64,000 bases of DNA from a virus (Duplodnaviria > Heunggongvirae > Uroviricota > Caudoviricetes), in IMG/VR virus record IMGVR_UViG_3300022746_000001. One strand, written 5' to 3'. Each line of letters opens with the position of its first letter. Within the stretch, counting starts at the first letter, position 1. Both the position numbers and the translations under genes were made by a program. Shown one piece after another: positions 5,666 to 58,910 of this stretch. The notes beneath the pieces were generated by a model. That model saw nothing but the letters and a program-made list of their open reading frames with translations, was not told the origin of the DNA and searched no databases.

Positions 5666-5859
5666 GTTTTCACCTTTAAAAGTTTGGTTTTTGAAACTCA
5701 ATCAAAATCAATTGAGTGAACGTAGTATAAACCAAAAAACAATCAAAAACCACGCAAGCACAAAAAAAAGTTGATTGTTTTTTTAAATCGCCATCATAGC
5801 TAAAAACAATCACACAAAATGCTTGTTTTGTGGTATACGTGAAAAACAATCAAGTCTCC

Positions 5860-6200
5860 TATAAGACAGGAGACAACTCTCCTAGGAGACAGGACATGGG
5901 TCTCCTATAAGACATAAGACAGGAGACAGGATGCGGACGATTCTCATTTAGGCGCCGATGCGGATGATCCGCATTTGCGATGCCGACTCCAGCTCCGACC
6001 CACGCACTGCCCTCTAACCTCCTAGGCAGCCCCAACCAGAGTCCATGCCGTACTCCATGCTCCTAGGCAAGTCCAACCAAAGCCCCTGCCGTACCCAATG
6101 GCGATGAGTACCAGTGTCCTACCCGTACCCAACCAGTGTTCGACCCGTTCCTAGGCGTCATCACGCTGCATAAAAGGGTGTGAAATCCATTCACACCCCC
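5860..6200. repeat. repeat-dense non-coding block: TCTCCT...AGGAGA palindromes, ATGCGGA-TG-ATCCGCAT palindrome, 33-bp imperfect direct repeats starting CCTAGGCA, CTGCCGTACCCAATGG copies
   Basis: read directly. Confidence 0.7.
6165..6198 (-). terminator. rho-independent terminator
   Basis: GGGTGTGAA-ATCCA-TTCACACCC then TTTTAT on minus strand. Confidence 0.5.
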
Positions 6201-6211
6201 TGCTCTATCCG

Positions 6212-6388
6212 TTAACGCTCGTCGTACAGGCGAGGTGTTCGGCGTACCGAGTGACCCTGACGCAGCATCTCTAGCTCCACGTCTTCTTGCATTTGGTCGT
6301 AGAAGTCTTCCTGGTCGTCGAATCGCTCGACAAATTGGAAGGTGTTGTTCTCTGTTGGCACAGGGTTAGTTTGAGCAATGCGTGACAT
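6212..6388 (-). CDS. small acidic protein (58 aa)
   Basis: AGGAG RBS 7 nt before ATG; MSRIAQTNPVPTENNTFQFVERFDDQEDFYDQMQEDVELEMLRQGHSVRRTPRLYDER; followed by hairpin terminator; below track cutoff. Confidence 0.45.
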   Translation of the reverse strand: MSRIAQTNPVPTENNTFQFVERFDDQEDFYDQMQEDVELEMLRQGHSVRRTPRLYDER

Positions 6389-6406
6389 GAGGTACTCCTG
6401 AAGCGG

Positions 6407-6661
6407 TTATTGCTTTGCGCTTGGTGTGGGGTACTGCATGCCGAACTCATCGGTTCGCTCGTCGTCTAGATCGCTATGCCCAAGAACATGCAAGCAATTG
6501 AGAATGGACGACATAGTGAATCCACCAGCGACATACAGACCGAACAACCACAGAGCGCCACCTCCATGTTGTTCAATTGCTTTGATGCAGGCGTATGCGA
6601 TTGCGGAACAGACCGTGATGGTCATTAAGGTGAGAACATAAACAGTTTGGCGATTGTTCAT
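6407..6661 (-). CDS. small membrane protein (2 TM)
   Basis: ORF track; hydrophobic segments. Confidence 0.5.
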   Translation of the reverse strand: MNNRQTVYVLTLMTITVCSAIAYACIKAIEQHGGGALWLFGLYVAGGFTMSSILNCLHVLGHSDLDDERTDEFGMQYPTPSAKQ

Positions 6662-6868
6662 GATTGTCTTTCATTTGTTGCACTCAAAATCGAGTAAATG
6701 AATTACATCATATAAAACAATCAAAAACCGCATGCCTAGATGATTGCCTGAAAGATCGCCTGCACTGGCCTAGGCGTCTTTTGGCCTACAGGTCAATGCT
6801 TACGGCCTAGGGGAATGTGTGGCCTGTGGCCTGAGAACCGAGCCTATCACTCGCTCGGTTTCTGTGGC

Positions 6869-7087
6869 CTACTCGTCGTCGAGATTCACGTAGTCAGGGG
6901 CATCCTGACGCTCAACCACGCGAATCGTCACACCTTCACAGACCGTTTCCAAGACGCTCTTGGTCGTTCTAACCAGCGCATCGAACGCTTCCTGCTCTAT
7001 GCGCTCGTCACGATTGTTCAAGGTCGCAAGCACTTGGAAGTCACCATCATCGCGGTCAAAGCCTATTGAAACGACTTCATGTGTCAT
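6869..7087 (-). CDS. hypothetical protein
   Basis: GGAG RBS, ATGA overlap with upstream gene. Confidence 0.5.
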   Translation of the reverse strand: MTHEVVSIGFDRDDGDFQVLATLNNRDERIEQEAFDALVRTTKSVLETVCEGVTIRVVERQDAPDYVNLDDE

Positions 7088-7335
7088 TGCGCACTCCAGT
7101 TCTTTTGATGCTCTTCCAACTTGATGGTCAGCGCGTAGATTGCTTCAAGCATTAGGGGAACAATATCAGCGCTTGCTTTCTTCGCTTTTTCCAAGCACTC
7201 AATTGCGTAATTAGGTGTGAAGAAGTAGATGGAGGATTCGTCAGCGTGATGCGAATCTTCGCCAAAACAATTGATAACCACACACAGGAGGTCTGCTTCG
7301 TCGTCGGTAAGGTTGCACTTGTCCAAGATGTTCAT
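7084..7335 (-). CDS. hypothetical protein
   Basis: ORF track; preceded by ACTCgattttGAGT palindrome element. Confidence 0.5.
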   Translation of the reverse strand: MNILDKCNLTDDEADLLCVVINCFGEDSHHADESSIYFFTPNYAIECLEKAKKASADIVPLMLEAIYALTIKLEEHQKNWSAQ

Positions 7336-7389
7336 GATGGTTTTGCGTTGTCACTCAAAATCGAGTGATTGAACTATAAGCGCAAAAAT

Positions 7390-8640
7390 CACTGCCTAAT
7401 CATGCTCGGTTCAATTCCCCTATAAGGTGTCCAATTCATGCTTTTCTCCTAGGGAGTTTCTTTTTAGGGGCAAACCTTATAGGGCAATGCCTAGGCAAAC
7501 TTATAGGAGTAGGCAAGCGAGCCTAGGCGAGCTTATACATTGGCAGAGCTTCCTAGAGTCTCCAATTGGCATTACCAGTGCCGCAGCCGTACCCAGTGGA
7601 TGAAAAGCCATCAAGGACATACCAGTCAGACAGCCGTACCCAATGGGTCAGTCCCTAGGGGTTTTGGATGCTTCGGACGCCGCGACTGGTCACGCTTTCT
7701 AGGCTTGGTCTCCTGTCTGCGAGTAGGCATGACGCCGATCCTGGGCTTTTGCCTAGGGACTTTGATGATGATCGTTTCTTTGGACATGCTCGAATTGTAG
7801 GGCGAAATTTCTTGTATAAGATTCGCCGCCGACTGCGTTAAATGATGAAGGGAATACTTCCCCCCAAACCTTATACATCTTTCCTAATTTTTCTTTTCCT
7901 ACTCTCTATCTACATACCTATACCTGAAGTTCTTCTTCCTAGCTTTTTATCATTCATTCTTCTATTCATCCTATGATTCATCCGTATGGTAGTTGTGGTC
8001 GTAGTCCTAGTCTTTATGCGGGTTCTTCGTTTCCGTGTCCGTCGTTTTGCTATTCATCTATCTATTCATCCTCTTAGCTGTTCCGATGTAGTTTGTGGTT
8101 GATTTTGTGCCTGTTCTTTTCTTAGCTGTTGTCGGTTCGGTTTGCTTTGGATTGTTTGTTCTTAGTTGTTTTGGGTGCCGAGTGTGTAAAGTTTGGGAAA
8201 GTTCTTCTTTACGTTTCTTGGGTTCTTTTTGGGGATGTGGGCAATTTCGGTCTGGCGTATATTTATATTTATTGCTTTTAAGGCTTATAGATTAAATGTC
8301 GCGGGATGGAAGAAAGCCTGACTCTGGCCTACGGGAGTTTGCTTACACTTTTCGGCCTCTGATTGTTCTCGGCCTCGTGTTTGATGCTTACGTGTTTTGG
8401 ACGGTCTCTTTAAACGACTTTTGAGCGCTTTTCCTGTGCTTGCTTAGTCGGTGGTATCAATGCTTGTTTGGCAGCGTTTTTGAGGTCGTTTTGAGTGCTT
8501 GGCCTATGGTCGTTTTTGCTTGCGTTTGTTTACATCAAAAAAGCTCAATTCCTGACAACTCAGGTGTCAGTTAGTGGTTGATGGGTCTTCCTCAAAAGTG
8601 GCGTTTTCCTGTTTAAAATCAATGACTTACGCCAAGGGGA
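7390..8640. repeat. non-coding region with CTTATA(G/C) iterons (7400-7860), CCTAGG-rich repeats, then T/G-rich direct repeats (7860-8640)
   Basis: read directly; no convincing ORFs. Confidence 0.65.
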
Positions 8641-8646
8641 CGAATT

Positions 8647-8682
8647 GTATACAAATAACCCCTAACTCGTAGGGGTTATTGA
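8647..8682. terminator. bidirectional hairpin terminator
   Basis: AACCCCTA-ACTCG-TAGGGGTT then TTTTT on plus; ATTTGTAT on minus. Confidence 0.5.
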
Positions 8683-8701
8683 GTGTTTTTGTACTCGATT
8701 T

Positions 8702-11931: not shown

Positions 11932-12103
11932 TGTCGTTCTCCTCGTCGTCCGTTTCGATGAATCCTTCTGTCTCTGCCATGTCTGTCACCTCGTCCTCAC
12001 TCATGTAGTCAAGGCAGCGTTCGGCGAGAGTTTTAGGGTCAAGAGTCCCCTGCTCCATCATGTCGAGCAGCTTGCAAGTGTTGGGTCTGGCTTTGCGTGT
12101 CAT
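11924..12103 (-). CDS. small acidic protein (about 59 aa)
   Basis: GGAGATAGAGGT RBS; ATGA/TGA overlaps with neighbours; below track cutoff. Confidence 0.35.
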   Translation of the reverse strand: MTRKARPNTCKLLDMMEQGTLDPKTLAERCLDYMSEDEVTDMAETEGFIETDDEENDND

Positions 12104-33056: not shown

Positions 33057-33140
33057 AGATTTCTCCGGTAGTTAAGTCACTAATGACTTTGAGATTATAG
33101 AGAGCGAAAACTTATAGAAGACGGCAATGCGTCAAGTCCC

Positions 33141-33175: not shown

Positions 33176-33263
33176 TGGCGGAAGCGGTGAGATTCGAACT
33201 CACGGAACCTTGCGGTTCGACTGGGTTCAAGCCAGTTGCCATAGACCACTCGACCACACTTCC
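33176..33263 (-). tRNA. tRNA-Ser (anticodon UGA), CCA encoded
   Basis: long variable arm; anticodon loop CTTGAAC; T-arm GGTTCGAATCTC. Confidence 0.8.
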
Positions 33264-33270
33264 TAAATCT

Positions 33271-33355
33271 TGGTGCCCAGAGTCGGACTCGAACCGACAC
33301 GCCTCGCGGCGACGGCTTCTGAGGCCGTTGCGTCTACCAATTTCACCACCTGGGC
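33271..33355 (-). tRNA. tRNA-Leu (anticodon CAG), CCA encoded
   Basis: anticodon loop CTCAGAA; long variable arm; T-loop GTTCGAGTC. Confidence 0.8.
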
Positions 33356-33356
33356 T

Positions 33357-33432
<76 letters not shown>

Positions 33433-33535
33433 ATCATGAATGAAGGCTTTCGTCCAGCTCGGGATAGGTCGGTAGTTAGCCGTTTCAGTTTCACCCGTCC
33501 CCTGGGAATCGAACCCAGAAGCCTTCATTCATGAT
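33433..33535 (-). other. about 100-nt element with 15-bp terminal inverted repeats containing a tRNA T-arm-like hairpin (tRNA-like fragment / structured RNA / miniature insertion)
   Basis: ATCATGAATGAAGGC ... GCCTTCATTCATGAT flank CTGGGTTCGATTCCCAG (minus strand) and tandem TGAAAC repeats; no complete cloverleaf found. Confidence 0.35.
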
Positions 33536-33610
33536 GGTGCCGCCTTGAGGAATTGAACCCCAGACCTTCTGCTTACAAGGCAGCTGCTCTACCAACTGAG
33601 CTAAGGCGGC
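33535..33610 (-). tRNA. tRNA-Thr (anticodon UGU), CCA encoded
   Basis: GCCGCCTTAGCTCAGTTGGTAGAGC; anticodon loop CTTGTAA; 7-bp acceptor stem. Confidence 0.75.
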
Positions 33611-33614
33611 TTAA

Positions 33615-33691
33615 TGGTCGGAGATGCAGGATTCGAACCTGCGACCCTCTGCTCCCAAAGCAGATGCGCTACCAGACTGCGCTAATCTCCG
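33615..33691 (-). tRNA. tRNA-Pro (anticodon UGG), CCA encoded
   Basis: CGGAGATTAGCGCAGTCTGGTAGCGC; anticodon loop TTTGGGA. Confidence 0.8.
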
Positions 33692-33695
33692 ATAC

Positions 33696-33770
33696 TGGTA
33701 CTCGGTGCGGGAATCGAACCCGCCTTACCGCCGTGAAAGGGCGGTGTCCTAACCGATAGACGAACCGAGC
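33696..33770 (-). tRNA. tRNA-Glu (anticodon UUC), CCA encoded
   Basis: anticodon stem-loop CCGCC-CTTTCAC-GGCGG; T-arm GCGGGTTCGATTCCCGC. Confidence 0.75.
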
Positions 33771-33861
33771 GTTCCATCAAGTCTGTTCTCTCGTGGGTCA
33801 AGCTACTCCTTTGCCGTCAAGAGGCTTGTTTCACCATTCCTCTTAGAGAGGACAGACTTCA

Positions 33862-33937
33862 TGGCTCCCCAGGGTGGGTTCGAACCACCGACACATGGAT
33901 TAACAGTCCATTGCTCTACCAACTGAGCTACTAGGGA
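33862..33937 (-). tRNA. tRNA-Asn (anticodon GUU), CCA encoded
   Basis: TCCCTAGTAGCTCAGTTGGTAGAGC; anticodon loop CTGTTAA. Confidence 0.8.
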
Positions 33938-34034
33938 ATGACGGTGCGTATGGAGTTGTACCCCAGACGTTTGTCGGCTTTTATAGTCCCCACACCTTTA
34001 GGACTACCGTGTCTCTGTTCTTCTTGCAAGAAAC

Positions 34035-34111
34035 TGGTTGCGGGGGCAGGACTCGAACCTGCGACCTCTGGATTATGAGTCCAGCGCTCTAACCTACTGA
34101 GCTACCCCGCT
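34035..34111 (-). tRNA. tRNA-Met (anticodon CAU; elongator or Ile2-type), CCA encoded
   Basis: anticodon loop CTCATAA; A1xA72 unpaired; no GGG/CCC initiator anticodon stem. Confidence 0.7.
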
Positions 34112-50989: not shown

Positions 50990-51643
50990 TTAGAAATGAT
51001 TTTCCATTGTGGTGTTCTCCAACTTACGCAGCTCGGCTAATGCACTGCGAACTTGCGCCTCTGTGACACCGCCCAACATCACGATGAATTGCCCTACATA
51101 GCGTGGCGATACATGGTTCATGAAGCGGCGCTCATAACCGAGACTTTTGGCGTACTGAATGTGCGCTTCGGCTTTTGCTAACTCTTCCAAGAACTCCTTC
51201 GGTGGCTCAATGACCCACTCCATAATCAAGAACGCCAGAGGTGAAAGTTGTTCACGAATCTGAGCCACGAACTCGCTACAGGCGTAGATTGCTTCAGGTG
51301 TCGCGTTGTCCTTCATCAGCACTTCTTCGAGATTGAAGTCTTCGCCGTTGGACTTGTTGTTCATCTCCTCGATGCTGACAACGCCATAGCGAAGACGCTC
51401 GTCAATCATCTTTTGCGCCCAAGAGTTAATCTTGTTGAAGGCAGCCATGTAGTAGTAAGTCGTGAATCGGTTGCCCAAACTCGCGTCGAACCCCTCGTAT
51501 GCCTTCAGGAAGACGAGAGACATTTCTTGGAACACATCGTCATAGTCCAAACCAATGCCTGCCGCCTGAAGTCGAGCGTAGCCCTTCTTCGAGACGGCGT
51601 GGACAAGACCTTTGTTCTCCTTGTAGAACTGGTCTACGTTCAT
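50990..51643 (-). CDS. sigma-70 family (ECF-like) RNA polymerase sigma factor
   Basis: region 2 DDVFQEMSLVFLKAYEGFDASLGNRFTTYYYMAAFNKI; C-terminal HTH VMLGGVTEAQVRSAL. Confidence 0.65.
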   Translation of the reverse strand: MNVDQFYKENKGLVHAVSKKGYARLQAAGIGLDYDDVFQEMSLVFLKAYEGFDASLGNRFTTYYYMAAFNKINSWAQKMIDERLRYGVVSIEEMNNKSNGEDFNLEEVLMKDNATPEAIYACSEFVAQIREQLSPLAFLIMEWVIEPPKEFLEELAKAEAHIQYAKSLGYERRFMNHVSPRYVGQFIVMLGGVTEAQVRSALAELRKLENTTMENHF

Positions 51644-51645
51644 GA

Positions 51646-52836
51646 TTAGCTTCCGAAGATGCGTTGAGCCAAGCCGTCTACAACTTCGCGGTCGATCTTG
51701 GACAACTTGTTGATGAACGACAGAGTCAAGCCCTGACGGAACGAACCGCGCTTGACGCCAATCTTGGCTGCGTAGATCAAAGTACGAGGCGAAATCACAT
51801 CGCTGATCTTTGCGCCGTCATACGCATCACGGACGAGACCTGCGAAGTCCACCAGCTTGTCGGCATCTTCTTTGGTCAAGCCAACTTGATTCTGGAGAAT
51901 CTGCGACTCGGAAGCCTTCTTCATGTACTGCTTGTGGATCACCATGCCGAAGCGGTCATAGTTCGCAGAGTTCTGAAGGTTTGTGCCTTGATACAGACCC
52001 GTCTCGTCGCCCGAACCGTTGGTGTTGCCAGTAGCGCAGAAGCGGAAGTTCGGGTGAGGCTTGATAAGACGATTCTCAGCATCGGCTTCTTTAATCATCA
52101 GTGACTTACCTTCGAGGACAGCCTGATAGACCGATAAGACAGAAGGCAACGCGAAGTCGTATTCGTCAGCGACATACATCCAACCATTTTGCATAGCGAG
52201 TGGAAGTGGGCCAAGTTCGAAGACGGTTTGACCGCCCTTCACCGTCCACTGCCCAACGATGTGTGATTCTTCCGTGTTGACTGTGTGCTGGACGCGAATC
52301 GTGGGTCGGTTAGTACGCGCGCCGATTTGTTCATACAGCTCAGTCTTGCCAGAACCTTTGTGACCCCACACGTAAGACGGAATGTTCAACTCAAGTGCCA
52401 GGATGACGTTTTTCAATTCGTCAATGTCGTACACGTAGTTGTCCGAAGGTGTCGGAACCATGTCGCTGAACTCGCCAGCGGCAAGTACGGAAATTGGAAT
52501 GGCTTCGCCCTTAGAACTCAATGCAGACTTGAGTTTGCCGAGATTGAAGGTTTCGTGAAATGCTTTTTTCATCACACCATTTCGGGGAGCAAGAGCGGCC
52601 ACATTCGTGCCAGCCATCTCCACTTTGGTGGTTGCTGCCGCTGCGGGTGCTGCGGTAGGATTTGTCGCGGCATGTTCCGCGATCTTCTTCTGCGCCAGTT
52701 GAGACAGCAGAGGTGCGTCTGGATAATCCATCGCATACTGCTCAACAGTCATTTCTGGGTGTGCATCCTTCAAGTGCAACTTGATGGCGTGAACATGCGC
52801 TCCACAGATGGCACATGCGATCTTTTCGTCTGACAT
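51646..52836 (-). CDS. cobS: CobS-like AAA+ ATPase (MoxR family)
   Basis: Walker A VWGHKGSGKTE; paired with downstream vWA protein as in phage CobS/CobT pairs. Confidence 0.7.
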   Translation of the reverse strand: MSDEKIACAICGAHVHAIKLHLKDAHPEMTVEQYAMDYPDAPLLSQLAQKKIAEHAATNPTAAPAAAATTKVEMAGTNVAALAPRNGVMKKAFHETFNLGKLKSALSSKGEAIPISVLAAGEFSDMVPTPSDNYVYDIDELKNVILALELNIPSYVWGHKGSGKTELYEQIGARTNRPTIRVQHTVNTEESHIVGQWTVKGGQTVFELGPLPLAMQNGWMYVADEYDFALPSVLSVYQAVLEGKSLMIKEADAENRLIKPHPNFRFCATGNTNGSGDETGLYQGTNLQNSANYDRFGMVIHKQYMKKASESQILQNQVGLTKEDADKLVDFAGLVRDAYDGAKISDVISPRTLIYAAKIGVKRGSFRQGLTLSFINKLSKIDREVVDGLAQRIFGS

Positions 52837-52953: not shown

Positions 52954-55089
52954 TTACGCTGCAAGCAAAAGCTGGCGCAACTCTTTAATCACAACGCTTG
53001 GCAACTGCTCCACGTTGTTCAACACAAGACTCTTTGGATAGAACTCGCGAACGGCCTCCGATTGAATGCCGATGCCGATGATCTTTACGCCTGAGTTGGC
53101 AATGTCACGCACCTTCTCGCGCAAGTGGCGACGCAGGTCGGCAGAGTTGCCGGCAGCCGCTGGATAACCGTCCGACAGCACCAGCATGATCTTGCCCTCT
53201 TCGCGACGCGCCATTAGACGACGAGCGGCCACCTCGATAGATTCGCCATCGACGTTACTGCGAAGGATGTTTGTGTTGGGAAGCCAACCGAAGCGCTCCT
53301 TCACGTCTGTAGTCATGCGTTCCTCGTAACCCTTGAGAATCGGCATGTAGATGCCTTCCATACGAGAGAAGCCACGACCCATCTTGCTCTGCTGCTCACG
53401 CATATCCTTCTGAGCGCCGCCAATGTCCTTCGTGGTGAAACAGATTACTTCATTCTTAATGCTCAAACGCTCCAACACGGCTGCCAGCGCATACGCAGCC
53501 TGACAAGCGGTGTGAACCTTCTCACCAGCCATCGAGCCAGAGGCGTCAACGACGAGTTCGACTGCCACATCCTTGCTGGTTGATTCCTGCTTGCGGCTAA
53601 AGACACGGTTATCGTTCACTGCCAGGCGAGACAGGTTTGGTGCGTGGAGACGACCGGAGCGGTGTCCGTGTGATCGGGTGGCGAGAGAACGTGCAGCGAT
53701 GGCGCGCTCAAGGTCTTTCTGCAATGGCGCGACCATGTGTTCCGTCTTCTCTATCAGCTTCTTGGTCATGGCTGCGTTGTAGCCGGAGCCGATTGGTAGC
53801 TTCTCCACAACGTCATAATCTTTCGTGAAGATCAGGTAATCGGCATTCTCCGCAACCGCGCTGGTGGCGTCGCTGATGACTTTGCTCATAGCTTCGTCGT
53901 AGCCGTTAGCACTCTCCTTGTCGAGCGCTTCCCATACTGGCGCAGAGTCGCCAAGCTCAACATCTTCTTCGTCTGAGGCGGTCGCACTTGGGGACGATTC
54001 GTCATCTACAGGGTCGGGTTCAGAAGGCTCCTCTTCCTCTTGCTCTGCGATCTCAGGCTCTGGCTCCGATTCGTCTTCTGATTCTTCAGGTGCTGGCTCT
54101 GGCTCTGATTCGTCTTCAGATTCTTTTTCTTCTGGCTCTTTCTCAGGTTCAGACTTCTCAGGCTTGGACTCTTTTTCTTTCTCGTCTTCTTTCTCGCCAG
54201 GCGCCTCTTCTTCTTTTTCTTCTTTCTCTTTTTCGCCCTTGCCCTTGCCTTTACCCTTTGAAGGAGTCTTTTCTTCTTCGCTTTTTTCTTCTGGCTCTTT
54301 CTCAGGTTTGGTCTTGCCGCTGCCAGAAGACTTGTCTTTTTTGCCAGAGGTTGTCTTGGTGCCGATACCGCCCGACTTGCTAGAACCACCCTTCTCGCTC
54401 TTCTCCTCACCCTTGTCGCCACCTGACGAGCCTTCGCTCATGCGCTTACCAATCTCGGCAGCCAGCTCAAAACATTCTTCGGTAGAGGCGGCAGCTTCGA
54501 TCTTCGGGGCCAAGTCTTTAATGCGTTCATACACAGGGGCGACCGTTGTCCAGTGGTCTTTCATGAACTCTTGGAAGACCATCTGACCCGACATAGCGCG
54601 AATCATTGGAACCATTAGCGATTCGATAACGCCGTTCACGTCACCGGCAGCAGCTTTCTCTTGCAAGCGTGGCTTGACGAACTTGTCCAGGTAGAACTGT
54701 CCAGTAACAGACAGGTTGTGCGCAGAGCCTTGAAAGCGCTTTGCCATGCACTTCTCGATGCGAGGGTCTTCAAGTGCATTAAGCAAGTAACCGATGCGCT
54801 TACCTTGCGCCATCGCCTTGCTCATGACGGTGAACTCGGTAAAGAGGATGTGAGCAACCTCGTGATCCAAGAAGCCTTGAATGGCGTTGCACAGGTCTTC
54901 ACCAGCGTTGTCTGGCAGATATGGCAAGTTGACAACCAGCGGCACACCGCGATGGTCGGCACGAACGTATGCGCTAACACCCTGTTGGGTGACTTTGATG
55001 CCCTTACCGGAGAGCATCTGTGTGATCTTCACGACGGACTCGCGAAGGATAAAAACTCGATCATTCTTCATTGTCGCTCCTTTAGTCAT
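52954..55089 (-). CDS. cobT: CobT-like von Willebrand factor A domain protein with long acidic/Lys-rich low-complexity region
   Basis: vWA MIDAS DASGSMAG; long low-complexity stretch KGKGKGEKEKEEKEEEAPGEKEDEKEKESKPEKSEPEKEPEEKESEDESEPEPAPEE. Confidence 0.7.
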   Translation of the reverse strand: MTKGATMKNDRVFILRESVVKITQMLSGKGIKVTQQGVSAYVRADHRGVPLVVNLPYLPDNAGEDLCNAIQGFLDHEVAHILFTEFTVMSKAMAQGKRIGYLLNALEDPRIEKCMAKRFQGSAHNLSVTGQFYLDKFVKPRLQEKAAAGDVNGVIESLMVPMIRAMSGQMVFQEFMKDHWTTVAPVYERIKDLAPKIEAAASTEECFELAAEIGKRMSEGSSGGDKGEEKSEKGGSSKSGGIGTKTTSGKKDKSSGSGKTKPEKEPEEKSEEEKTPSKGKGKGKGEKEKEEKEEEAPGEKEDEKEKESKPEKSEPEKEPEEKESEDESEPEPAPEESEDESEPEPEIAEQEEEEPSEPDPVDDESSPSATASDEEDVELGDSAPVWEALDKESANGYDEAMSKVISDATSAVAENADYLIFTKDYDVVEKLPIGSGYNAAMTKKLIEKTEHMVAPLQKDLERAIAARSLATRSHGHRSGRLHAPNLSRLAVNDNRVFSRKQESTSKDVAVELVVDASGSMAGEKVHTACQAAYALAAVLERLSIKNEVICFTTKDIGGAQKDMREQQSKMGRGFSRMEGIYMPILKGYEERMTTDVKERFGWLPNTNILRSNVDGESIEVAARRLMARREEGKIMLVLSDGYPAAAGNSADLRRHLREKVRDIANSGVKIIGIGIQSEAVREFYPKSLVLNNVEQLPSVVIKELRQLLLAA

Positions 55090-55171
55090 TAGTGACTGAC
55101 AGACGTAATGTAAGCAATGACTTCAGGAGGTGCAATGCTATTGACGAAATCCCCTGAGACGTTCCCAAGGT

Positions 55172-55195
55172 AAGAAAAAGGGGCCGAAGCCCCTT
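55172..55195 (-). terminator. rho-independent terminator
   Basis: AAGGGGC-CGAA-GCCCCTT then TTTCTTACC on minus strand. Confidence 0.5.
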
Positions 55196-55200
55196 GATAG

Positions 55201-55389
55201 TCAGGCAAAGATGATGGCTGACCGGCCTATGATTGTCGAAACGATATGTAGAGCGCCCAATGAGGGGTGGTCGCCAAACTGGATAACAGAGACGCCCAGG
55301 TCTATCGTGGACTGGATGGTCATGGATTCAAGAATTTCGGCACATTGCTCTAAAGACAACTCCTGAGATTTGGTTTCTTGCACTAGCAT
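55201..55389 (-). CDS. hypothetical protein
   Basis: strong AAGGAGAGG RBS. Confidence 0.45.
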   Translation of the reverse strand: MLVQETKSQELSLEQCAEILESMTIQSTIDLGVSVIQFGDHPSLGALHIVSTIIGRSAIIFA

Positions 55390-55569
55390 TACCTCTCCTT
55401 TTTGATGAGAACGCCCGTAATTATAGTCACTGACCGCTTAGTTATTGCTAACTGCAAAAAATAGAAATGTGTGATAAATTGCCAGTAAAACAAACTCACT
55501 ACTTATTTAACCCGCGTTTATAATTTAGAAGTCAGCTCGACGTTTGAGCTAAATTTTTGGGAGAAAGCT

Positions 55570-56016
55570 ATGGCTATCACTAAAGCTGTGCGAGTCACTC
55601 CACCGACCGCAAGTAAGCCGAAGAATGTTGCCGAATACATATCGTGGCAGATCAACCTGTGTGGCAAGAAGCAAATCGAAATCGCTGAAGAAGTCGGCTT
55701 TGATAAGCCGAACGTCATCACAATGATTAAGCAGGGAAAGACCAAGGTTCCGATCAACAAGATTGGAAAAATGGCGAAAGCACTCAATGTTGACCCCATC
55801 TTCTTCTTGAGGATGTGCATCAATGAGTACATGCCAGACATGATGGAAGCCATTACCGCCATCATAAACCAACCCGTTTTTACGGCCAATGAAATTGATT
55901 TCATTGAGGAAATGAGAGCTTCGAAGATAGTTAACCCGAAGCTGGAGACCAAAGATGATCGCGCCAGATTCAGGGAGTTCTTGAAGACACTGAAAAGCGA
56001 CAATGGCGGAAACTGA
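55570..56016 (+). CDS. XRE-family helix-turn-helix transcriptional regulator (repressor-like)
   Basis: HTH QIEIAEEVGFDKPNVITMIKQGKT; GGGAGAAAG RBS; AT-rich divergent promoter region upstream. Confidence 0.7.
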   Translation: MAITKAVRVTPPTASKPKNVAEYISWQINLCGKKQIEIAEEVGFDKPNVITMIKQGKTKVPINKIGKMAKALNVDPIFFLRMCINEYMPDMMEAITAIINQPVFTANEIDFIEEMRASKIVNPKLETKDDRARFREFLKTLKSDNGGN

Positions 56017-56050
56017 GCAAAGTTTCGTCACTACTGAATAAGGCACCTTC

Positions 56051-56076
56051 GGGTGCCTTTTTTTTCAACTAAGGAT
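56051..56076 (+). terminator. rho-independent terminator
   Basis: AGGCACC-TTCG-GGTGCCT followed by T8. Confidence 0.7.
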
Positions 56077-56122
56077 TTAGTGACTATCATATAAATTCAC
56101 TCGTGACTTATCAACAAGCCAA

Positions 56123-56380
56123 ATGATGATGCGTTTTATAAAGATTGCCGAAGTCGAACAGATTTCAGGATTCAAGAAATCCAAGATTTATTCCATGATC
56201 CAACAGGGCGAGTTTCCTCAACCCGTCAAGATCGGTCGCTCGTCTAATTGGCTACTCTCGGAGCTTGAGGGATGGATAGCCTTGCGCGCCATGCAGCGAA
56301 CCACTCCCACGGTTGAATGGAGTAGTTACAGTTCCCAGAGCGCAGGTCATCCAGATAGTCAGCCCACCCCTGCACCATGA
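56123..56380 (+). CDS. alpA: AlpA-family excisionase-like DNA-binding protein
   Basis: MRFIKIAEVEQISGFKKSKIYSMIQQGEFPQPVKIGRSSNWLLSELEGWI matches AlpA pattern; 3' end overlaps integrase by about 137 nt. Confidence 0.65.
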   Translation: MMMRFIKIAEVEQISGFKKSKIYSMIQQGEFPQPVKIGRSSNWLLSELEGWIALRAMQRTTPTVEWSSYSSQSAGHPDSQPTPAP

Positions 56381-57518
56381 TGCAGCGCTCTTGCCAATAC
56401 TCAGCGCGGTTGTAGGCGCGTTCAACCTTACTCTCCAGCTCGTGCGCTAATTGCTTTTCGACAACTTTGGAATCGAAGCCGCCCTCTTCCAACAAGGTCT
56501 TGGCAGTAGTTCTAAAGCCGTGTGTGGAGTGAATTTCTTTGTAGCCCAGGCGATGCAAGTTCTTCATGAAGGTGGTGTCGCCATAGACGCCACCTCGCGG
56601 ACTTGGGAATACAAGACCTTCCGAGCCTGTGACTGTTTTCAGGTTTTCAAGCATTTCAACTGCTTGCTTGGACAGAGGGCACAGAAAGTCTTTTCTTGCT
56701 TTCATCTGATGCGCCGGTAATGTCCAAGTCGCATTCGGAAGATCAAACTGTTCCCATGATGCGTATCGTAAGTTTTGCGGACGAACGAAGACCAACGCAT
56801 TCAGGCGCAACGCAATCACAGGCAATGTCTGCTCGTCGTTGTCCAGCTTTCGCAATAACTCCCCAAGTTGTTCAGGGACAATGAGTGCAGGAAAGTGACG
56901 CTCTTTATGCTGCGCAAATCCATCGCGCTTTACTCTTGCAATTGGATTGCCTGGAAGTTCGCCGCGATCATAAGCGGCTTCAAATGCTCGATTTAGGAGT
57001 GATCGTACTCGGGTTAGCTTGTAATTCGCACCGCGCTTTTCTACTCTTTCAAGCAAGCTCCGAATGTCATCAGGTGTGATACCGATCGCCTCGCGTTTAC
57101 CGATGAACGGTAGAACGTCTCGCTTCATGGCAATCTCATAGTCGTCGTAGTGAGTGTCGCTCCAATCTTTCTTGTTGCGCTCCATCCACCCGTACAAAAG
57201 TTCCGAGACCGTTTGGTGCTTGGTCACGATCCTCTCGACACGACGAGCCTCGACAGGGTCTTTCCCCAACTGTACTTTTTCCCTAGCTTGCTGTGCCAGG
57301 GTACGAGCCGTACTTAGCGAGACTGCGGGATAGGTTCCGATGGAATAGGTCTTACGTTTTCCATACAGGGAGTAGTTCAAAGTCCAGCTTGCAGAGCCGT
57401 TGGGTCGAACGACTAGGTACAGGTTTTCGCCGTCCGCTATCTTCGTTACTCCACCCTTGTCTCTTGCTTGCTTGAGCCTTGATTCTAAAGACTTTTGGGA
57501 CAACTCATGTAACGCCAT
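56244..57518 (-). CDS. int: tyrosine integrase (P4-type, N-terminal arm-binding domain)
   Basis: GGAGG RBS before ATG 57518; catalytic-region HGFRTT...HEL...RAYNRAEY. Confidence 0.8.
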   Translation of the reverse strand: MALHELSQKSLESRLKQARDKGGVTKIADGENLYLVVRPNGSASWTLNYSLYGKRKTYSIGTYPAVSLSTARTLAQQAREKVQLGKDPVEARRVERIVTKHQTVSELLYGWMERNKKDWSDTHYDDYEIAMKRDVLPFIGKREAIGITPDDIRSLLERVEKRGANYKLTRVRSLLNRAFEAAYDRGELPGNPIARVKRDGFAQHKERHFPALIVPEQLGELLRKLDNDEQTLPVIALRLNALVFVRPQNLRYASWEQFDLPNATWTLPAHQMKARKDFLCPLSKQAVEMLENLKTVTGSEGLVFPSPRGGVYGDTTFMKNLHRLGYKEIHSTHGFRTTAKTLLEEGGFDSKVVEKQLAHELESKVERAYNRAEYWQERCIMVQGWADYLDDLRSGNCNYSIQPWEWFAAWRARLSIPQAPRVAN

Positions 57519-57519
57519 G

Positions 57520-57830
57520 TGGTAACGCCTCCAAACAAATGTGGTAACGGTCTTGAGTGTAGTGACCGATTTCTTAGTTACCACCGGCGTTACCACTTTA
57601 TTTTCTGGAAGTCAGGGGATTGGCATGGAGAGTGGTGGAAAAGAAAAACCCCCAGAACCTAGTGGTGGTGGGGGTTTCGCTTTTGCTGAACACTCTGGCG
57701 GAGGTCAGCGGACTACCAGTTTCAAGCAGGTGCCAAATATTTGGCGGAGACGGAGGGATTCGTACTTCTAGTCTCTATGAGGCTTTCGGGAGGATTCCAA
57801 ATTCGTTACCACCGCCGTTACCACTTGAGT
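57520..57830. repeat. candidate att region with direct GTTACCAC arm-type repeats
   Basis: GTTACCACCGGCGTTACCACTT and GTTACCACCGCCGTTACCACTTGAGTG plus further GTTACCAC/GTGGTAAC copies beside integrase start. Confidence 0.5.
57640..57676 (-). terminator. rho-independent terminator
   Basis: CCCCCA...TGGGGG stem then TTTTTCTTTTCC on minus strand. Confidence 0.55.
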
Positions 57831-58452
57831 GAGCCGGCGAATAAACCGTCCGAATCAACTCATCTACCACCGTGTCAATGTTGTCCTCATTGAACCACAA
57901 CAGGTTTACATCTGCCAGAGAGCGGCATTGCTCAAACCAGTGCGTCTCTTCGCCCATCATAACACTGAGGCGCTTCGAGTAGGTATCCAAGACTTTCTCA
58001 GCCCCTTCTGGATTTCCGATGCCGCCCACGATGAAGTCCTGGATCATGCGCTCCAAGAATCGTTTGGCAATTACGCTGTACGGATTGTTCACAAAAACGG
58101 AGACGATTCGAATCCCCTTTTGCAATCCATATTCGCGAACTTGGCGAAGACCTTCAGGCTCAACAACGACGACAACAGGCTTGCTTTTCGCAAACACTCG
58201 TTCCACTTCGCAAGCACTGACGCCGTACAGGTTTCCATTAAATTCAACCTGCTCAATGTATGCACCTTCGGCTGCATTCTTTTTAAATGCTTCAGGCGAC
58301 ACGAAGTAATATGATTGCCCATCTACTTCGCCTTTTCGCATGGGTCGAGTGGTCGTGGAAATTACGTTCTCAAAGCCTGCTTGTTTTAGCCTTGCTTCAA
58401 GTGTTGATTTGCCAGAGCATGATGGGCCGGTGAGGGTTAGGATTGTTTTCAT
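57775..58452 (-). CDS. guanylate kinase-like nucleoside monophosphate kinase
   Basis: LTGPSCSGKSTL, TTRPMRKGEVDGQSYYFVS. Confidence 0.7.
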   Translation of the reverse strand: MKTILTLTGPSCSGKSTLEARLKQAGFENVISTTTRPMRKGEVDGQSYYFVSPEAFKKNAAEGAYIEQVEFNGNLYGVSACEVERVFAKSKPVVVVVEPEGLRQVREYGLQKGIRIVSVFVNNPYSVIAKRFLERMIQDFIVGGIGNPEGAEKVLDTYSKRLSVMMGEETHWFEQCRSLADVNLLWFNEDNIDTVVDELIRTVYSPAHSSGNGGGNEFGILPKAS

Positions 58453-58910
58453 TCTGCAATCTCCTTGAATGTTGTGTAGTACGTGTTGATCTTCAAGGCG
58501 TTATTGCCGTTGTATATGATTGAACCTTGAGAGCCGAGATATGTATCCAAACTCCAACCTTCGCGTTGAAACATTTTGTCTGGGTCTTCTTTCAACAATT
58601 GGCGAATTTTTTCCTTGTTGTATGTCTCTATGCCTTTTGACTCCAGGTACTCCTTAGACAGCTCAAAAGTCACCGACTCCACAATTCGACGTTTACCTAT
58701 CTTGTCAAGACTGCGGACAACCATGTTTGCCTCTACATTTGAAAGGCCAGTTAGTGCTTCTGCAAAACTAGCCAGAGGCACTTCAAGTTCGACAAATTCA
58801 ATTCGACTTGCCTCATCTTGAATGGCTATTCTGATAAACGGGTTGTCGTCAGATCGAAAGCCGTATGGCCTGCTGATCGTTAGCTTTCCTTTAAGGGTTT
58901 GCTTGCTCAT
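58449..58910 (-). CDS. hypothetical protein
   Basis: AAAGGAGAAAG RBS. Confidence 0.5.
   Translation of the reverse strand: MSKQTLKGKLTISRPYGFRSDDNPFIRIAIQDEASRIEFVELEVPLASFAEALTGLSNVEANMVVRSLDKIGKRRIVESVTFELSKEYLESKGIETYNKEKIRQLLKEDPDKMFQREGWSLDTYLGSQGSIIYNGNNALKINTYYTTFKEIAE

What the first reader, a model, noticed from the sequence alone, without database searches (positions are those of the whole stretch)
55390..57830. Complete lysogeny module embedded among replication genes, with GTTACCAC arm-type repeats
A divergent AT-rich promoter region, XRE-type repressor, terminator, AlpA-like excisionase and P4-type integrase (the two genes converge and overlap by about 137 nt) are followed by a 300-bp region dense in GTTACCAC/GTGGTAAC direct and inverted repeats (GTTACCACCGGCGTTACCACTT, GTTACCACCGCCGTTACCACTTGAGTG) and a terminator. 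Phage genes continue on both sides, so this looks like an internal attP with integrase arm-binding sites rather than a prophage boundary.
Basis: partly seen in the sequence, partly recalled or inferred. Interest (0 to 1): 0.5.

Follow-up and report, generated by a model that had tools for sequence, protein, structure and literature searches.

The report
Phage lysogeny module with tRNA-Ser attP

Summary
All six GTTACCAC copies in the 64-kb window lie in 57519-57824 (0.9 expected).

- Between the two groups of arm repeats, on the minus strand, lies CGAATCCCTCCGTCTCCGCCA (57742-57762). This is the 3' end of a tRNA-Ser gene, followed by a strong terminator. It is the likely crossover core.
- Uncultivated relatives (103-114 kb contigs) keep the same order in the same slot: gmk, arm pair, tRNA piece, terminator, arm sites, int, alpA, xre, cobT.
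- Some relatives carry a second tRNA-Ser allele. Others carry unrelated tyrosine integrases with tRNA-Cys or tRNA-Val pieces.
- Related bacterial integrases sit 150-250 nt downstream of a complete tRNA or tmRNA gene, which matches the 223-nt spacing here.
- Phage replication genes continue on both sides of the module.

No integrated copy and no host were found, so integration is inferred and not shown.

Verdict: a new member of a known kind, of low to moderate interest. The convergent alpA/int overlap, conserved in this family, is its least ordinary feature.

The parts
55201..55389 (-). Small conserved ORF (62 aa), divergent from xre and followed by a - strand terminator at 55178-55195. It sits in the position of a Cro-like early gene. 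Its function is unknown.
   Evidence: ORF list. tblastn finds a 29-43% identical ORF at the same position in most relatives. No Pfam or PHROG family. Terminator.
55390..55569 (.). AT-rich divergent control region between orf62 and xre.
   Evidence: GC is 37% in the 180-nt window 55360-55539, against about 52% for the window as a whole. It contains one candidate operator.
55089..55099 (.). Candidate operator TTAGTGACTGA, a near-palindrome just upstream of the cobT ribosome-binding site.
   Evidence: The pattern TNAGTSACTNW has 5 sites in the window, and 0 of 100 shuffles reach that count. The pattern was derived from three of those sites. AGTSACT recurs just upstream of cobT in L002, L004, L005, L007 and L127.
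55423..55433 (.). Candidate operator in the orf62/xre divergent region.
   Evidence: There is a matching site in the same region of L004, L005 and L127.
55570..56016 (+). XRE-like helix-turn-helix regulator (148 aa), the presumed prophage repressor.
   Evidence: HTH_3 at 21.6 bits, below the cut-off of 23. PHROG 8 'transcriptional regulator', E = 2e-9. It is conserved (33-70% identity) at this position in nearly all relatives, whatever integrase they carry.
56040..56067 (+). Intrinsic terminator after xre. It insulates alpA from xre transcription.
   Evidence: 8-bp stem followed by a T8 run. Folding gives -14.3 kcal/mol, z = -3.4.
56077..56087 (.). Candidate operator TTAGTGACTAT upstream of alpA.
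   Evidence: L004 has a matching site between alpA and xre.
56123..56380 (+). AlpA-family DNA-binding protein (85 aa), the presumed excisionase (recombination directionality factor). It is convergent with int, and its last 45 codons overlap the 3' end of int.
   Evidence: PF05930 at 53.2 bits, cut-off 21. PHROG 'excisionase and transcriptional regulator'. The overlap of 107-188 nt is kept in all 8 family members examined.
56244..57518 (-). P4-type tyrosine integrase, 424 aa.
   Evidence: Arm-DNA-bind_3 (77 bits), Phage_int_M (54 bits) and Phage_integrase (57 bits). R246, K273, H333, R336, H359 and Y369 are invariant in the family alignment. The exact protein is on 8 other contigs.
57519..57548 (-). 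Two arm-type sites GTTACCAC on the - strand (57519-57526 and 57541-57548). They bracket the int Shine-Dalgarno sequence (CCTCC at 57528-57532), and the first abuts the ATG.
   Evidence: Conserved in relatives as GTTACCAC...GTTACCAC-(A)TG.
57577..57596 (+). Pair of arm-type sites spaced 12 nt start to start (GTTACCAC on the + strand, GTGGTAAC in the int direction).
   Evidence: Conserved as a pair in relatives.
57637..57681 (-). Strong terminator hairpin with a TTTTTCTTTT tail, downstream of the tRNA-like core. It ends gmk transcription in the phage and would terminate the rebuilt tRNA-Ser gene in a lysogen.
   Evidence: -29.9 kcal/mol, z = -6.3. The hairpin and the CTTTTTCTTTTCCA tail are near-invariant in 7 relatives.
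57695..57713 (-). TCCRC repeats phased about 10 nt apart next to the core. They are candidate sites for an accessory protein or the excisionase.
   Evidence: Invariant TCC blocks in the attP alignment. Sequences. The function is inferred only.
57742..57762 (-). attP core: CGAATCCCTCCGTCTCCGCCA, which is the 3' end of a tRNA-Ser gene from the T loop to CCA.
   Evidence: Read. Unique in the window. The corresponding complete allele, GGGTTCGAATCCCTCCGTCTCCGCCA, occurs in more than 120 metagenomic contigs and 48 viral contigs. The 18-nt block is shared by L001-L004. The other allele (L005, L007, L127, L134) is an exact 25-nt match to real tRNA-Ser(CGA) genes that lie next to related integrases.
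57805..57824 (+). Outer pair of arm-type sites on the far side of the core, inside the last 17 codons of the guanylate-kinase ORF.
   Evidence: Conserved as GTGGTAAC-N4-GTGGTAA in relatives.
57775..58452 (-). Phage guanylate kinase, the gene that would lie at the far end of the prophage.
   Evidence: PF00625 at 88.7 bits. It lies in the same place in relatives.

Best explanation
This is the working lysogeny cassette of a temperate siphovirus-like phage of about 108 kb.

Integration (inferred). The integrase binds through its N-terminal arm domain to six GTGGTAAC sites: two on the gmk side of the core and four on the int side, two of those inverted. Its catalytic domain acts at a core that copies the 3' end of a host tRNA-Ser gene. 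Recombination with that gene would insert the phage. The phage-borne 21-nt piece and its terminator would rebuild the tRNA gene. The integrase would then lie about 220 nt downstream of the tRNA at one prophage end, and the guanylate kinase at the other.

Maintenance and excision (inferred). The XRE-like protein is the probable repressor. It would act at near-palindromic TNAGTSACTNW sites in front of cobT (the replication operon), in the orf62/xre divergent region, and in front of alpA. AlpA is the probable excision factor.

Shown: the anatomy, the protein families, conservation across relatives, the identity of the core to real tRNA-Ser 3' ends, and the tRNA-to-int spacing in bacterial homologues.

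Inferred: integration itself, the host, the repressor and excisionase roles, and the operators.
For: Repeats and integrase:
- The repeat clustering is far beyond chance, and the integrase has an arm-binding domain.
- The catalytic residues R, K, H, R, H and Y are invariant in the family.

tRNA-Ser core:
- The core lies between the arm groups.
- Relatives keep the whole layout.
- The core allele changes together with the integrase subgroup: CCCTCCGTCTCC with integrases 64-68% identical, CCCACCCTCTCC with integrases 50-54% identical.
- The second allele is an exact 25-nt match to tRNA-Ser(CGA) genes in Bilophila, Desulfovibrio and a Desulfohalobiaceae MAG. Each of those genes lies 190-230 nt upstream of a homologous integrase.
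- In 60 bacterial loci scanned for tRNAs, most integrase homologues have a tRNA or tmRNA gene on the same strand ending 150-250 nt upstream. The spacing here is 223 nt.

Slot comparison:
- Relatives with unrelated tyrosine integrases in the same slot carry tRNA-Cys or tRNA-Val pieces instead.
- The lytic phage nickie has the same backbone with an empty slot.
- The viral records L023 and L024 start exactly at the ATG of their integrase, and L014/L272 ends at an integrase. That would be expected if they were trimmed at a prophage boundary, but I could not check it.

General principle: integration into tRNA genes with restoration of the gene by the element is described in PMC4383910 (abstract, seen).
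Against: - No integrated copy was found. Every place shown from about 49 contigs read that carry this integrase or a close relative has the free phage junction.
- The longest contigs carrying integrases at least 48% identical are 103-110 kb, which is phage-sized.
- No lysogen was found among 80 metagenomic and 128 viral loci that carry the matching tRNA-Ser alleles.
- The host is unknown.
- The HTH hit of the presumed repressor is below Pfam's cut-off.
- The operator pattern was defined from the sites it then counts.
- Some relatives have lost the cassette (L008) or truncated it (L027), so it is dispensable.
Confidence: 0.8

Rival explanations
1. Plasmid prophage. The phage is maintained as an episome, like its distant SSU5-type relatives. 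The tyrosine recombinase would resolve multimers at this site and would not insert the phage into a chromosome.
For: - Escherichia phage Cyrano is a distant relative (35% DnaE identity). Its record annotates an integrase, a putative repressor and a small ORF in the same slot before cobT, cobS and dnaE, together with a RepA replication initiator.
- Rhizobium phage RHEph10 has a 'replication protein C' gene in this slot.
- No integrated copy was seen in any contig.
Against: - A resolution site has no reason to copy a tRNA 3' end, to switch between tRNA-Ser alleles, tRNA-Cys and tRNA-Val along with the integrase, or to carry its own tRNA-style terminator.
- The multi-site arm architecture and the AlpA partner are typical of directional integration and excision.
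- tblastn found no RepA or RepC homologue in the 64-kb window. About 45 kb of the genome is unseen.
Confidence: 0.07
2. Relic. The cassette is an inherited but no longer used remnant, and the phage is effectively lytic.
For: - Lytic relatives lack the cassette (nickie; L008).
- L027 keeps attP but has a truncated int and has lost alpA and xre.
- Only free-phage junctions were seen.
Against: - All three genes are intact.
- The integrase catalytic residues and arm sites are kept over 50-68% protein divergence without frameshifts.
- The tRNA identity block is perfect over 21 nt.
Confidence: 0.08
3. Hitch-hiker. The int-alpA-xre block is a separate small mobile element, such as a satellite or island, that inserted into the phage genome and is not the phage's own module.
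For: - P4-type integrases with AlpA are typical of satellites and islands (one search shows them in bacterial islands).
- GC is slightly lower here, 48-50% against about 52%.
Against: - There is no second copy of the core to mark an inserted element. The only other hit has 3 mismatches, lies 46 kb away and is in inverted orientation.
- The block sits in the same slot across relatives whose DnaE is 71-81% identical and whose Int is 53-68% identical, which fits co-descent.
- xre is kept even where the integrase type differs.
- Candidate operators sit in front of the phage's own cobT operon.
Confidence: 0.05

Closest known systems
P4-type (Arm-DNA-bind_3 / DUF4102) tyrosine integrases of phages, satellites and tRNA-linked genomic islands
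   Same: - The same three-domain architecture and catalytic residues.
- The target is the 3' part of a tRNA gene, and int lies about 200 nt downstream of the rebuilt tRNA.
- An AlpA-family partner protein.
   Different: - Only 34-39% identical to the best bacterial homologues and 37% to the best GenBank phage, Stenotrophomonas S1.
- The clade of integrases at least 48% identical is known only from metagenomic contigs of phage size.
- Here alpA is convergent with int and overlaps it. In 19 of 21 related islands it lies 0.4-1.2 kb downstream on the same strand, apart from one 2.4 kb and one 7.2 kb away. In phage S1 no alpA is annotated next to int.
Lambda-type attP organisation (core flanked by arm-type integrase sites, with accessory and Xis sites)
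   Same: - Repeated arm-type motifs on both sides of a core.
- An integrase with a separate arm-binding domain.
- A small directionality factor encoded next to int.
   Different: - The motif, and the number and orientation of sites, are specific to this family: 2 on one side and 4 on the other, two of them inverted.
- The core is a tRNA 3' end.
- Arm sites overlap the int ribosome-binding site and the end of a neighbouring gene.
- Binding has not been tested.
Nickievirus (Pseudomonas phage nickie), Rhizobium phage RHEph10, and SSU5-like phages such as Escherichia phage Cyrano (SSU5-like from my own knowledge; its record annotates RepA)
   Same: - Shared backbone order: PhoH, DnaB, primase, ligase, then the slot, then CobT, CobS, DnaE, RecA, SbcCD and RNR.
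- Genome size of about 105-115 kb.
   Different: - DnaE is only 35-44% identical.
- The slot is empty in nickie, holds a RepC-like gene in RHEph10, and holds a different integrase plus repressor in Cyrano.
- Here it holds a P4-type integrase, AlpA, an XRE-like gene and a tRNA-Ser attP.

Membership tests
P4-type tyrosine integrase | N-terminal arm-type DNA-binding domain (PF13356) | tested here: met
   76.6 bits against a cut-off of 27, residues 33-119 of the 450-aa ORF.
P4-type tyrosine integrase | Central SAM-like domain and C-terminal catalytic domain with the R, K, H-x-x-R, H and Y residues | tested here: met
   PF22022 at 54.5 bits and PF00589 at 56.7 bits. R246, K273, H333, R336, H359 and Y369 are invariant in 6 family members. 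I assigned these as the catalytic residues by motif, from my own knowledge.
P4-type tyrosine integrase | Targets the 3' part of a tRNA or tmRNA gene, with int next to the rebuilt gene | tested here: met
   There is a 21-nt tRNA-Ser 3' end 223 nt upstream of int. Homologues lie 150-250 nt downstream of tRNA or tmRNA genes. This is met for sequence and geometry only, not for an observed insertion.
P4-type tyrosine integrase | Catalyses site-specific recombination between attP and attB | not testable with these tools
   Needs an in vivo or in vitro recombination assay.
Lambda-type attP | Arm-type repeats on both sides of the core, more frequent than chance | tested here: met
   6 copies against 0.92 expected, and 0 of 100 shuffles reach 6. 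Relatives have 3-6 copies where 0.1-0.2 would be expected.
Lambda-type attP | Core identical to a bacterial attB | tested here: inconclusive
   Real tRNA-Ser genes ending in the same 21 nt exist in more than 120 metagenomic contigs. The actual host and attB were not identified.
Lambda-type attP | attL and attR hybrid junctions in lysogens | tested here: not met
   None was found among 80 metagenomic and 128 viral tRNA-Ser loci, or on any place shown from about 49 contigs read that carry the integrase.
AlpA / Xis-type directionality factor (PF05930) | AlpA winged-helix domain | tested here: met
   53.2 bits against a cut-off of 21, residues 3-52. PHROG 'excisionase and transcriptional regulator'.
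AlpA / Xis-type directionality factor (PF05930) | Stimulates excision or binds attR-side sites | not testable with these tools
   The TCCRC repeats next to the core are only candidate sites.
XRE / CI-type prophage repressor | HTH_3 (XRE) DNA-binding domain | tested here: inconclusive
   21.6 bits, below the cut-off of 23. PHROG 8 'transcriptional regulator', E = 2e-9. The best solved-structure hits are weak, for example an immunity repressor at E = 0.35.
XRE / CI-type prophage repressor | Divergent arrangement with an early gene, and repeated operators | tested here: inconclusive
   The divergent orf62 and the AT-rich spacer are present. The three near-palindromes are partly conserved in position, but the pattern was derived after seeing them.
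SSU5-like phage-plasmid | Plasmid replication initiator and partition genes | tested here: inconclusive
   No RepA (Cyrano) or RepC (RHEph10) homologue in the window. Only 64 kb of about 108 kb is visible.

The most novel reading that the evidence does not exclude
The gap between ligase/gmk and cobT may be a lifestyle slot of a widespread, mostly uncultivated superfamily of ~105-115-kb phages related to Nickievirus and the SSU5-like phages. The same replication backbone would then carry one of several fittings:
- an integrase with its own tRNA-derived attP (tRNA-Ser in two alleles, tRNA-Cys or tRNA-Val);
- a plasmid replication gene;
- nothing at all.

Lineages would therefore switch between integrative, episomal and lytic life by cassette exchange. 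Within the P4-type branch, the conserved 107-188-nt antisense overlap of alpA and int may act as a built-in switch that sets the ratio of integrase to excisionase.
Probability: 0.4. Interest if true: 0.45.

Novelty: new member of a known kind. Interest (0 to 1): 0.27.

Why it matters
It marks an uncultivated group of large phages as temperate. These phages carry their own DnaE polymerase, CobS/CobT, a ribonucleotide reductase and a tRNA cluster. It also predicts their integration target, a tRNA-Ser gene ending ...TTCGAATCCCTCCGTCTCCGCCA. That target gives a direct handle for finding hosts and lysogens.

The comparison across relatives gives a clean natural series: one replication backbone with different integrase and attP cassettes, a plasmid replication gene, or an empty slot. 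Such a series is useful for studying how phages change lifestyle. The module itself works by well-known principles.

Tried and rejected
- Near-identity DNA search against GenBank phages found no match.
- My first look-up of the integrase used a start one codon too far upstream and found nothing. The corrected start worked.
- I suspected a second tRNA-like end at 57695-57713 (GACCTCCGCCA). I rejected this because in relatives the block reads TCCAC or TCCGC repeats and is not a tRNA end.
- The phage's own tRNA-Ser(UGA) at 33176-33263 is not the source of the core. Its 3' end differs.
- Rfam found no family in 55000-58500. The ctRNA and ohsC hits are the terminator hairpin, far below the gathering scores.
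- Host search:
  - Metagenome and viral scans for the full tRNA-Ser alleles returned many tRNA genes but no lysogen.
  - A search for the SRA run numbers in papers found nothing.
- L157 and L215 have TTACCA-type repeats after the same tRNA-Ser but no related integrase. I took them to be unrelated or remnants.
- The sigma-70 promoter scan found no convincing int or xre promoter, so I name no promoters.
Full report
**What is in the sequence**

- GTTACCAC occurs six times in the 64-kb window, and every copy lies between 57519 and 57824. Shuffles give 0.92 copies on average, and none of 100 reaches six.
- The copies form three pairs. One inverted pair (57519, 57541, - strand) sits directly in front of the integrase start. 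One pair is at 57577 and 57589. One pair is at 57805 and 57817. The last two pairs are parts of a 25-nt direct repeat.
- The genes are as described:
  - an XRE-like ORF at 55570-56016 (+);
  - an intrinsic terminator at 56040-56059;
  - an AlpA-family ORF at 56123-56380 (+; PF05930, 53 bits);
  - an integrase on the - strand with Arm-DNA-bind_3, Phage_int_M and Phage_integrase domains.
- The real integrase start is the ATG at 57518, with GGAGG nine bases upstream. The resulting 424-aa protein is found unchanged on eight other public contigs.
- alpA and int overlap by 137 nt (56244-56380).
- The spacer between orf62 (55201-55389, -) and xre is 37% GC in a window that averages about 52%.
The HTH_3 hit is below Pfam's cut-off (21.6 against 23 bits), although PHROGs calls the protein a transcriptional regulator at E = 2e-9.

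Read on the - strand, which is the direction of int, the region runs in this order:
1. the end of the guanylate-kinase gene;
2. GTGGTAAC-GGCG-GTGGTAAC;
3. 43 nt of spacer;
4. CGAATCCCTCCGTCTCCGCCA (57762 down to 57742);
5. a short spacer with TCCGC repeats;
6. a strong hairpin with a TTTTTCTTTT tail (57681 down to 57637; -29.9 kcal/mol, z = -6.3);
7. GTGGTAAC-GCCG-GTGGTAAC;
8. GTTACCAC, the GGAGG ribosome-binding site, GTTACCAC, then the ATG of int.

The 21-nt block has the form of a tRNA 3' end: the second half of the T loop, the 3' strand of the T stem, the 3' acceptor strand, a discriminator G and CCA. ARAGORN and Rfam find no whole tRNA there, so it is a fragment, as expected for an attP. 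The corresponding complete allele, GGGTTCGAATCCCTCCGTCTCCGCCA, exists in more than 120 metagenomic contigs and 48 viral contigs. It is therefore a real and widespread tRNA gene ending.

**Evidence from relatives**

The window belongs to an uncultivated phage group.
- DnaE is at most 44% identical to any GenBank phage. The nearest are the Rhizobium RHEph10 group, Pseudomonas nickie, and the Klebsiella and Escherichia phages of 84-111 kb, which I take to be SSU5-like from my own knowledge.
- IMG/VR holds relatives with 62-83% identical DnaE, on contigs up to 105-114 kb.
- In eleven of these loci, from eight distinct contigs, int, alpA and xre sit in the same slot between gmk and cobT.
- The attP regions of seven relatives align. 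They keep every element: both arm pairs, the inverted pair at the int start, the tRNA piece, the TCC repeats and the terminator with its tail.
- The arm motif is 15- to 40-fold enriched in each of them.

The tRNA piece changes together with the integrase.
- Integrases 64-68% identical to the window's share ATCCCTCCGTCTCCGCCA.
- Integrases 50-54% identical carry GGTTCGAATCCCACCCTCTCCGCCA.
- That second block is an exact 25-nt match to the end of tRNA-Ser(CGA) genes in Bilophila wadsworthia, a Desulfovibrio MAG and a Desulfohalobiaceae MAG. Each of these genes lies 190-230 nt upstream of a homologous integrase.
- More generally, I scanned 60 bacterial loci holding 34-39% identical integrases for tRNAs. 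Most have a tRNA or tmRNA gene on the same strand ending 150-250 nt before the integrase. The tRNA piece in the window ends 223 nt before int.
- This is the arrangement described for tRNA-targeting islands, where the element restores the gene it splits (PMC4383910 abstract).

The slot behaves as a cassette.
- Relatives whose slot holds tyrosine integrases without the arm domain carry other tRNA pieces in front of them. L041 has a complete tRNA-Cys. L022 and L033 have tRNA-Cys 3' parts. L016 has a tRNA-Val 3' part.
- L008 has no cassette. L027 keeps attP and the first 179 codons of int but has lost the rest, together with alpA and xre.
- Among cultured phages with the same backbone order, nickie has an empty slot. 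RHEph10 has a 'replication protein C' gene there. Escherichia phage Cyrano has an annotated integrase, a putative repressor and a small ORF in the same order before cobT, cobS and dnaE.
- Placing a lysogeny module at this point of the replication cluster is therefore an old and already annotated feature of the wider group.

**Is it an attP or a prophage end?**

It is an attP. Four observations support this.
- Phage genes continue on both sides.
- The same junction is seen on every place shown from about 49 contigs read that carry this integrase or one about 50% identical. One short contig stops inside attP.
- Complete-length relatives have the module in mid-contig.
- Only a tRNA fragment is present.

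What lies there is the guanylate kinase, then ligase and primase.

**How it most likely works**

The integrase would bridge arm sites and core, recombine with a tRNA-Ser gene, and leave int at one prophage end and gmk at the other. The phage piece and its terminator would complete the tRNA gene.

The arm sites bracket the int ribosome-binding site and abut its start codon, which would allow the integrase to limit its own synthesis. This is inference.

The XRE-like protein is the likely repressor. A near-palindrome, TNAGTSACTNW, occurs at five sites in the window against 1.5 strand matches expected. Three of these sites lie in the 1-kb control region: in front of cobT, in the divergent spacer, and in front of alpA. 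AGTSACT recurs at the corresponding places in several relatives. I derived the pattern from those three sites, so the count is not an independent test.

AlpA is the likely excision factor. The TCCRC repeats next to the core are candidate sites for it or for another accessory protein.

**The least ordinary feature**

alpA converges on int and overlaps its 3' end by 107-188 nt in all eight family members examined. In 19 of 21 bacterial islands with related integrases, the AlpA-like gene lies on the same strand as int, in 17 of them 0.4-1.2 kb downstream. The best phage homologue, Stenotrophomonas S1, has no annotated alpA next to int. The integrase tail involved (PWxWFxxWR) is conserved and is absent from the bacterial homologues, whose alignments mostly end near residue 395-405. 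Antisense coupling of the two genes is plausible but untested.

**What is missing**

I found no integrated copy and no host.
- Integrases at least 48% identical are known only from metagenomes, and their longest contigs are 103-110 kb.
- Scans for the full tRNA-Ser alleles gave many tRNA genes but no lysogen.
- Weak indirect support for integration at this slot comes from relatives with other integrases. The viral records L023 and L024 begin exactly at the integrase ATG. L014/L272 runs from just before cobT to an integrase at its other end. That would be expected of records trimmed as proviruses, but I could not check the trimming.

The episomal and relic rivals therefore keep some weight.

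**Verdict**

It is improved by identifying a tRNA-Ser-derived core and its terminator. The module is a new member of a well-known kind, of low to moderate interest.

Noticed in passing
window 11962-11979 (+): ATCCTTCTGTCTCTGCCA is a second, degenerate copy of the attP core. It has 3 mismatches, lies in inverted orientation and is 46 kb away. About 0.06 chance matches are expected. All three differences fall at every third base. No arm repeats lie nearby. It may be chance or a relic.
   Followed up: partly
window 33176-34111 (-): A cluster of eight tRNA genes: Ser-UGA, Leu-CAG, Trp, Thr-UGU, Pro-UGG, Glu-UUC, Asn and Met. The phage's own tRNA-Ser has a different 3' end from the attP core.
   Followed up: partly
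window 33073-33083 and 52098-52108: Two further matches to the operator-like near-palindrome TNAGTSACTNW. One lies in the intergenic stretch just after the tRNA cluster and the other inside cobS.
   Followed up: no
window 52954-55089 (-): CobT has a long low-complexity middle rich in acidic residues, Lys and Ser. The long + strand ORFs at 53918-54586 are shadows of it. The likely true start is the ATG at 55071, which has an AGGAG upstream, not 55089.
   Followed up: partly
window 50990-51643 (-): An ORF resembling sigma-70 region 2 lies between cobS and dnaE (PHROG 351). It is annotated as a sigma factor in RHEph10 at the same position.
   Followed up: no
L027:3600-4900 (IMGVR_UViG_3300043447_000415): This relative keeps attP and the first ~179 codons of int but has lost the rest of int, alpA and xre. 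It looks like a natural virulent derivative.
   Followed up: partly
L041:2147-2220: This relative carries a complete tRNA-Cys gene, not just a fragment, in front of a different tyrosine integrase in the same slot.
   Followed up: partly
L344:4092-5096 (Rhizobium phage RHEph10, NC_034248): The equivalent slot holds a gene annotated 'replication protein C', on the opposite strand. This hints at episomal maintenance in that cultured relative.
   Followed up: no
window 57714-57741: Directly after the CCA of the core, the window has about 21-28 nt (AATATTTGGCACCTGCTTGAAACTGGTA on the - strand) that all aligned relatives lack. It could be host-derived sequence picked up next to the tRNA.
   Followed up: no
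window 5700-8700: A 3-kb stretch containing only small ORFs of under 90 aa on both strands, which is unlike the rest of the window.
   Followed up: no
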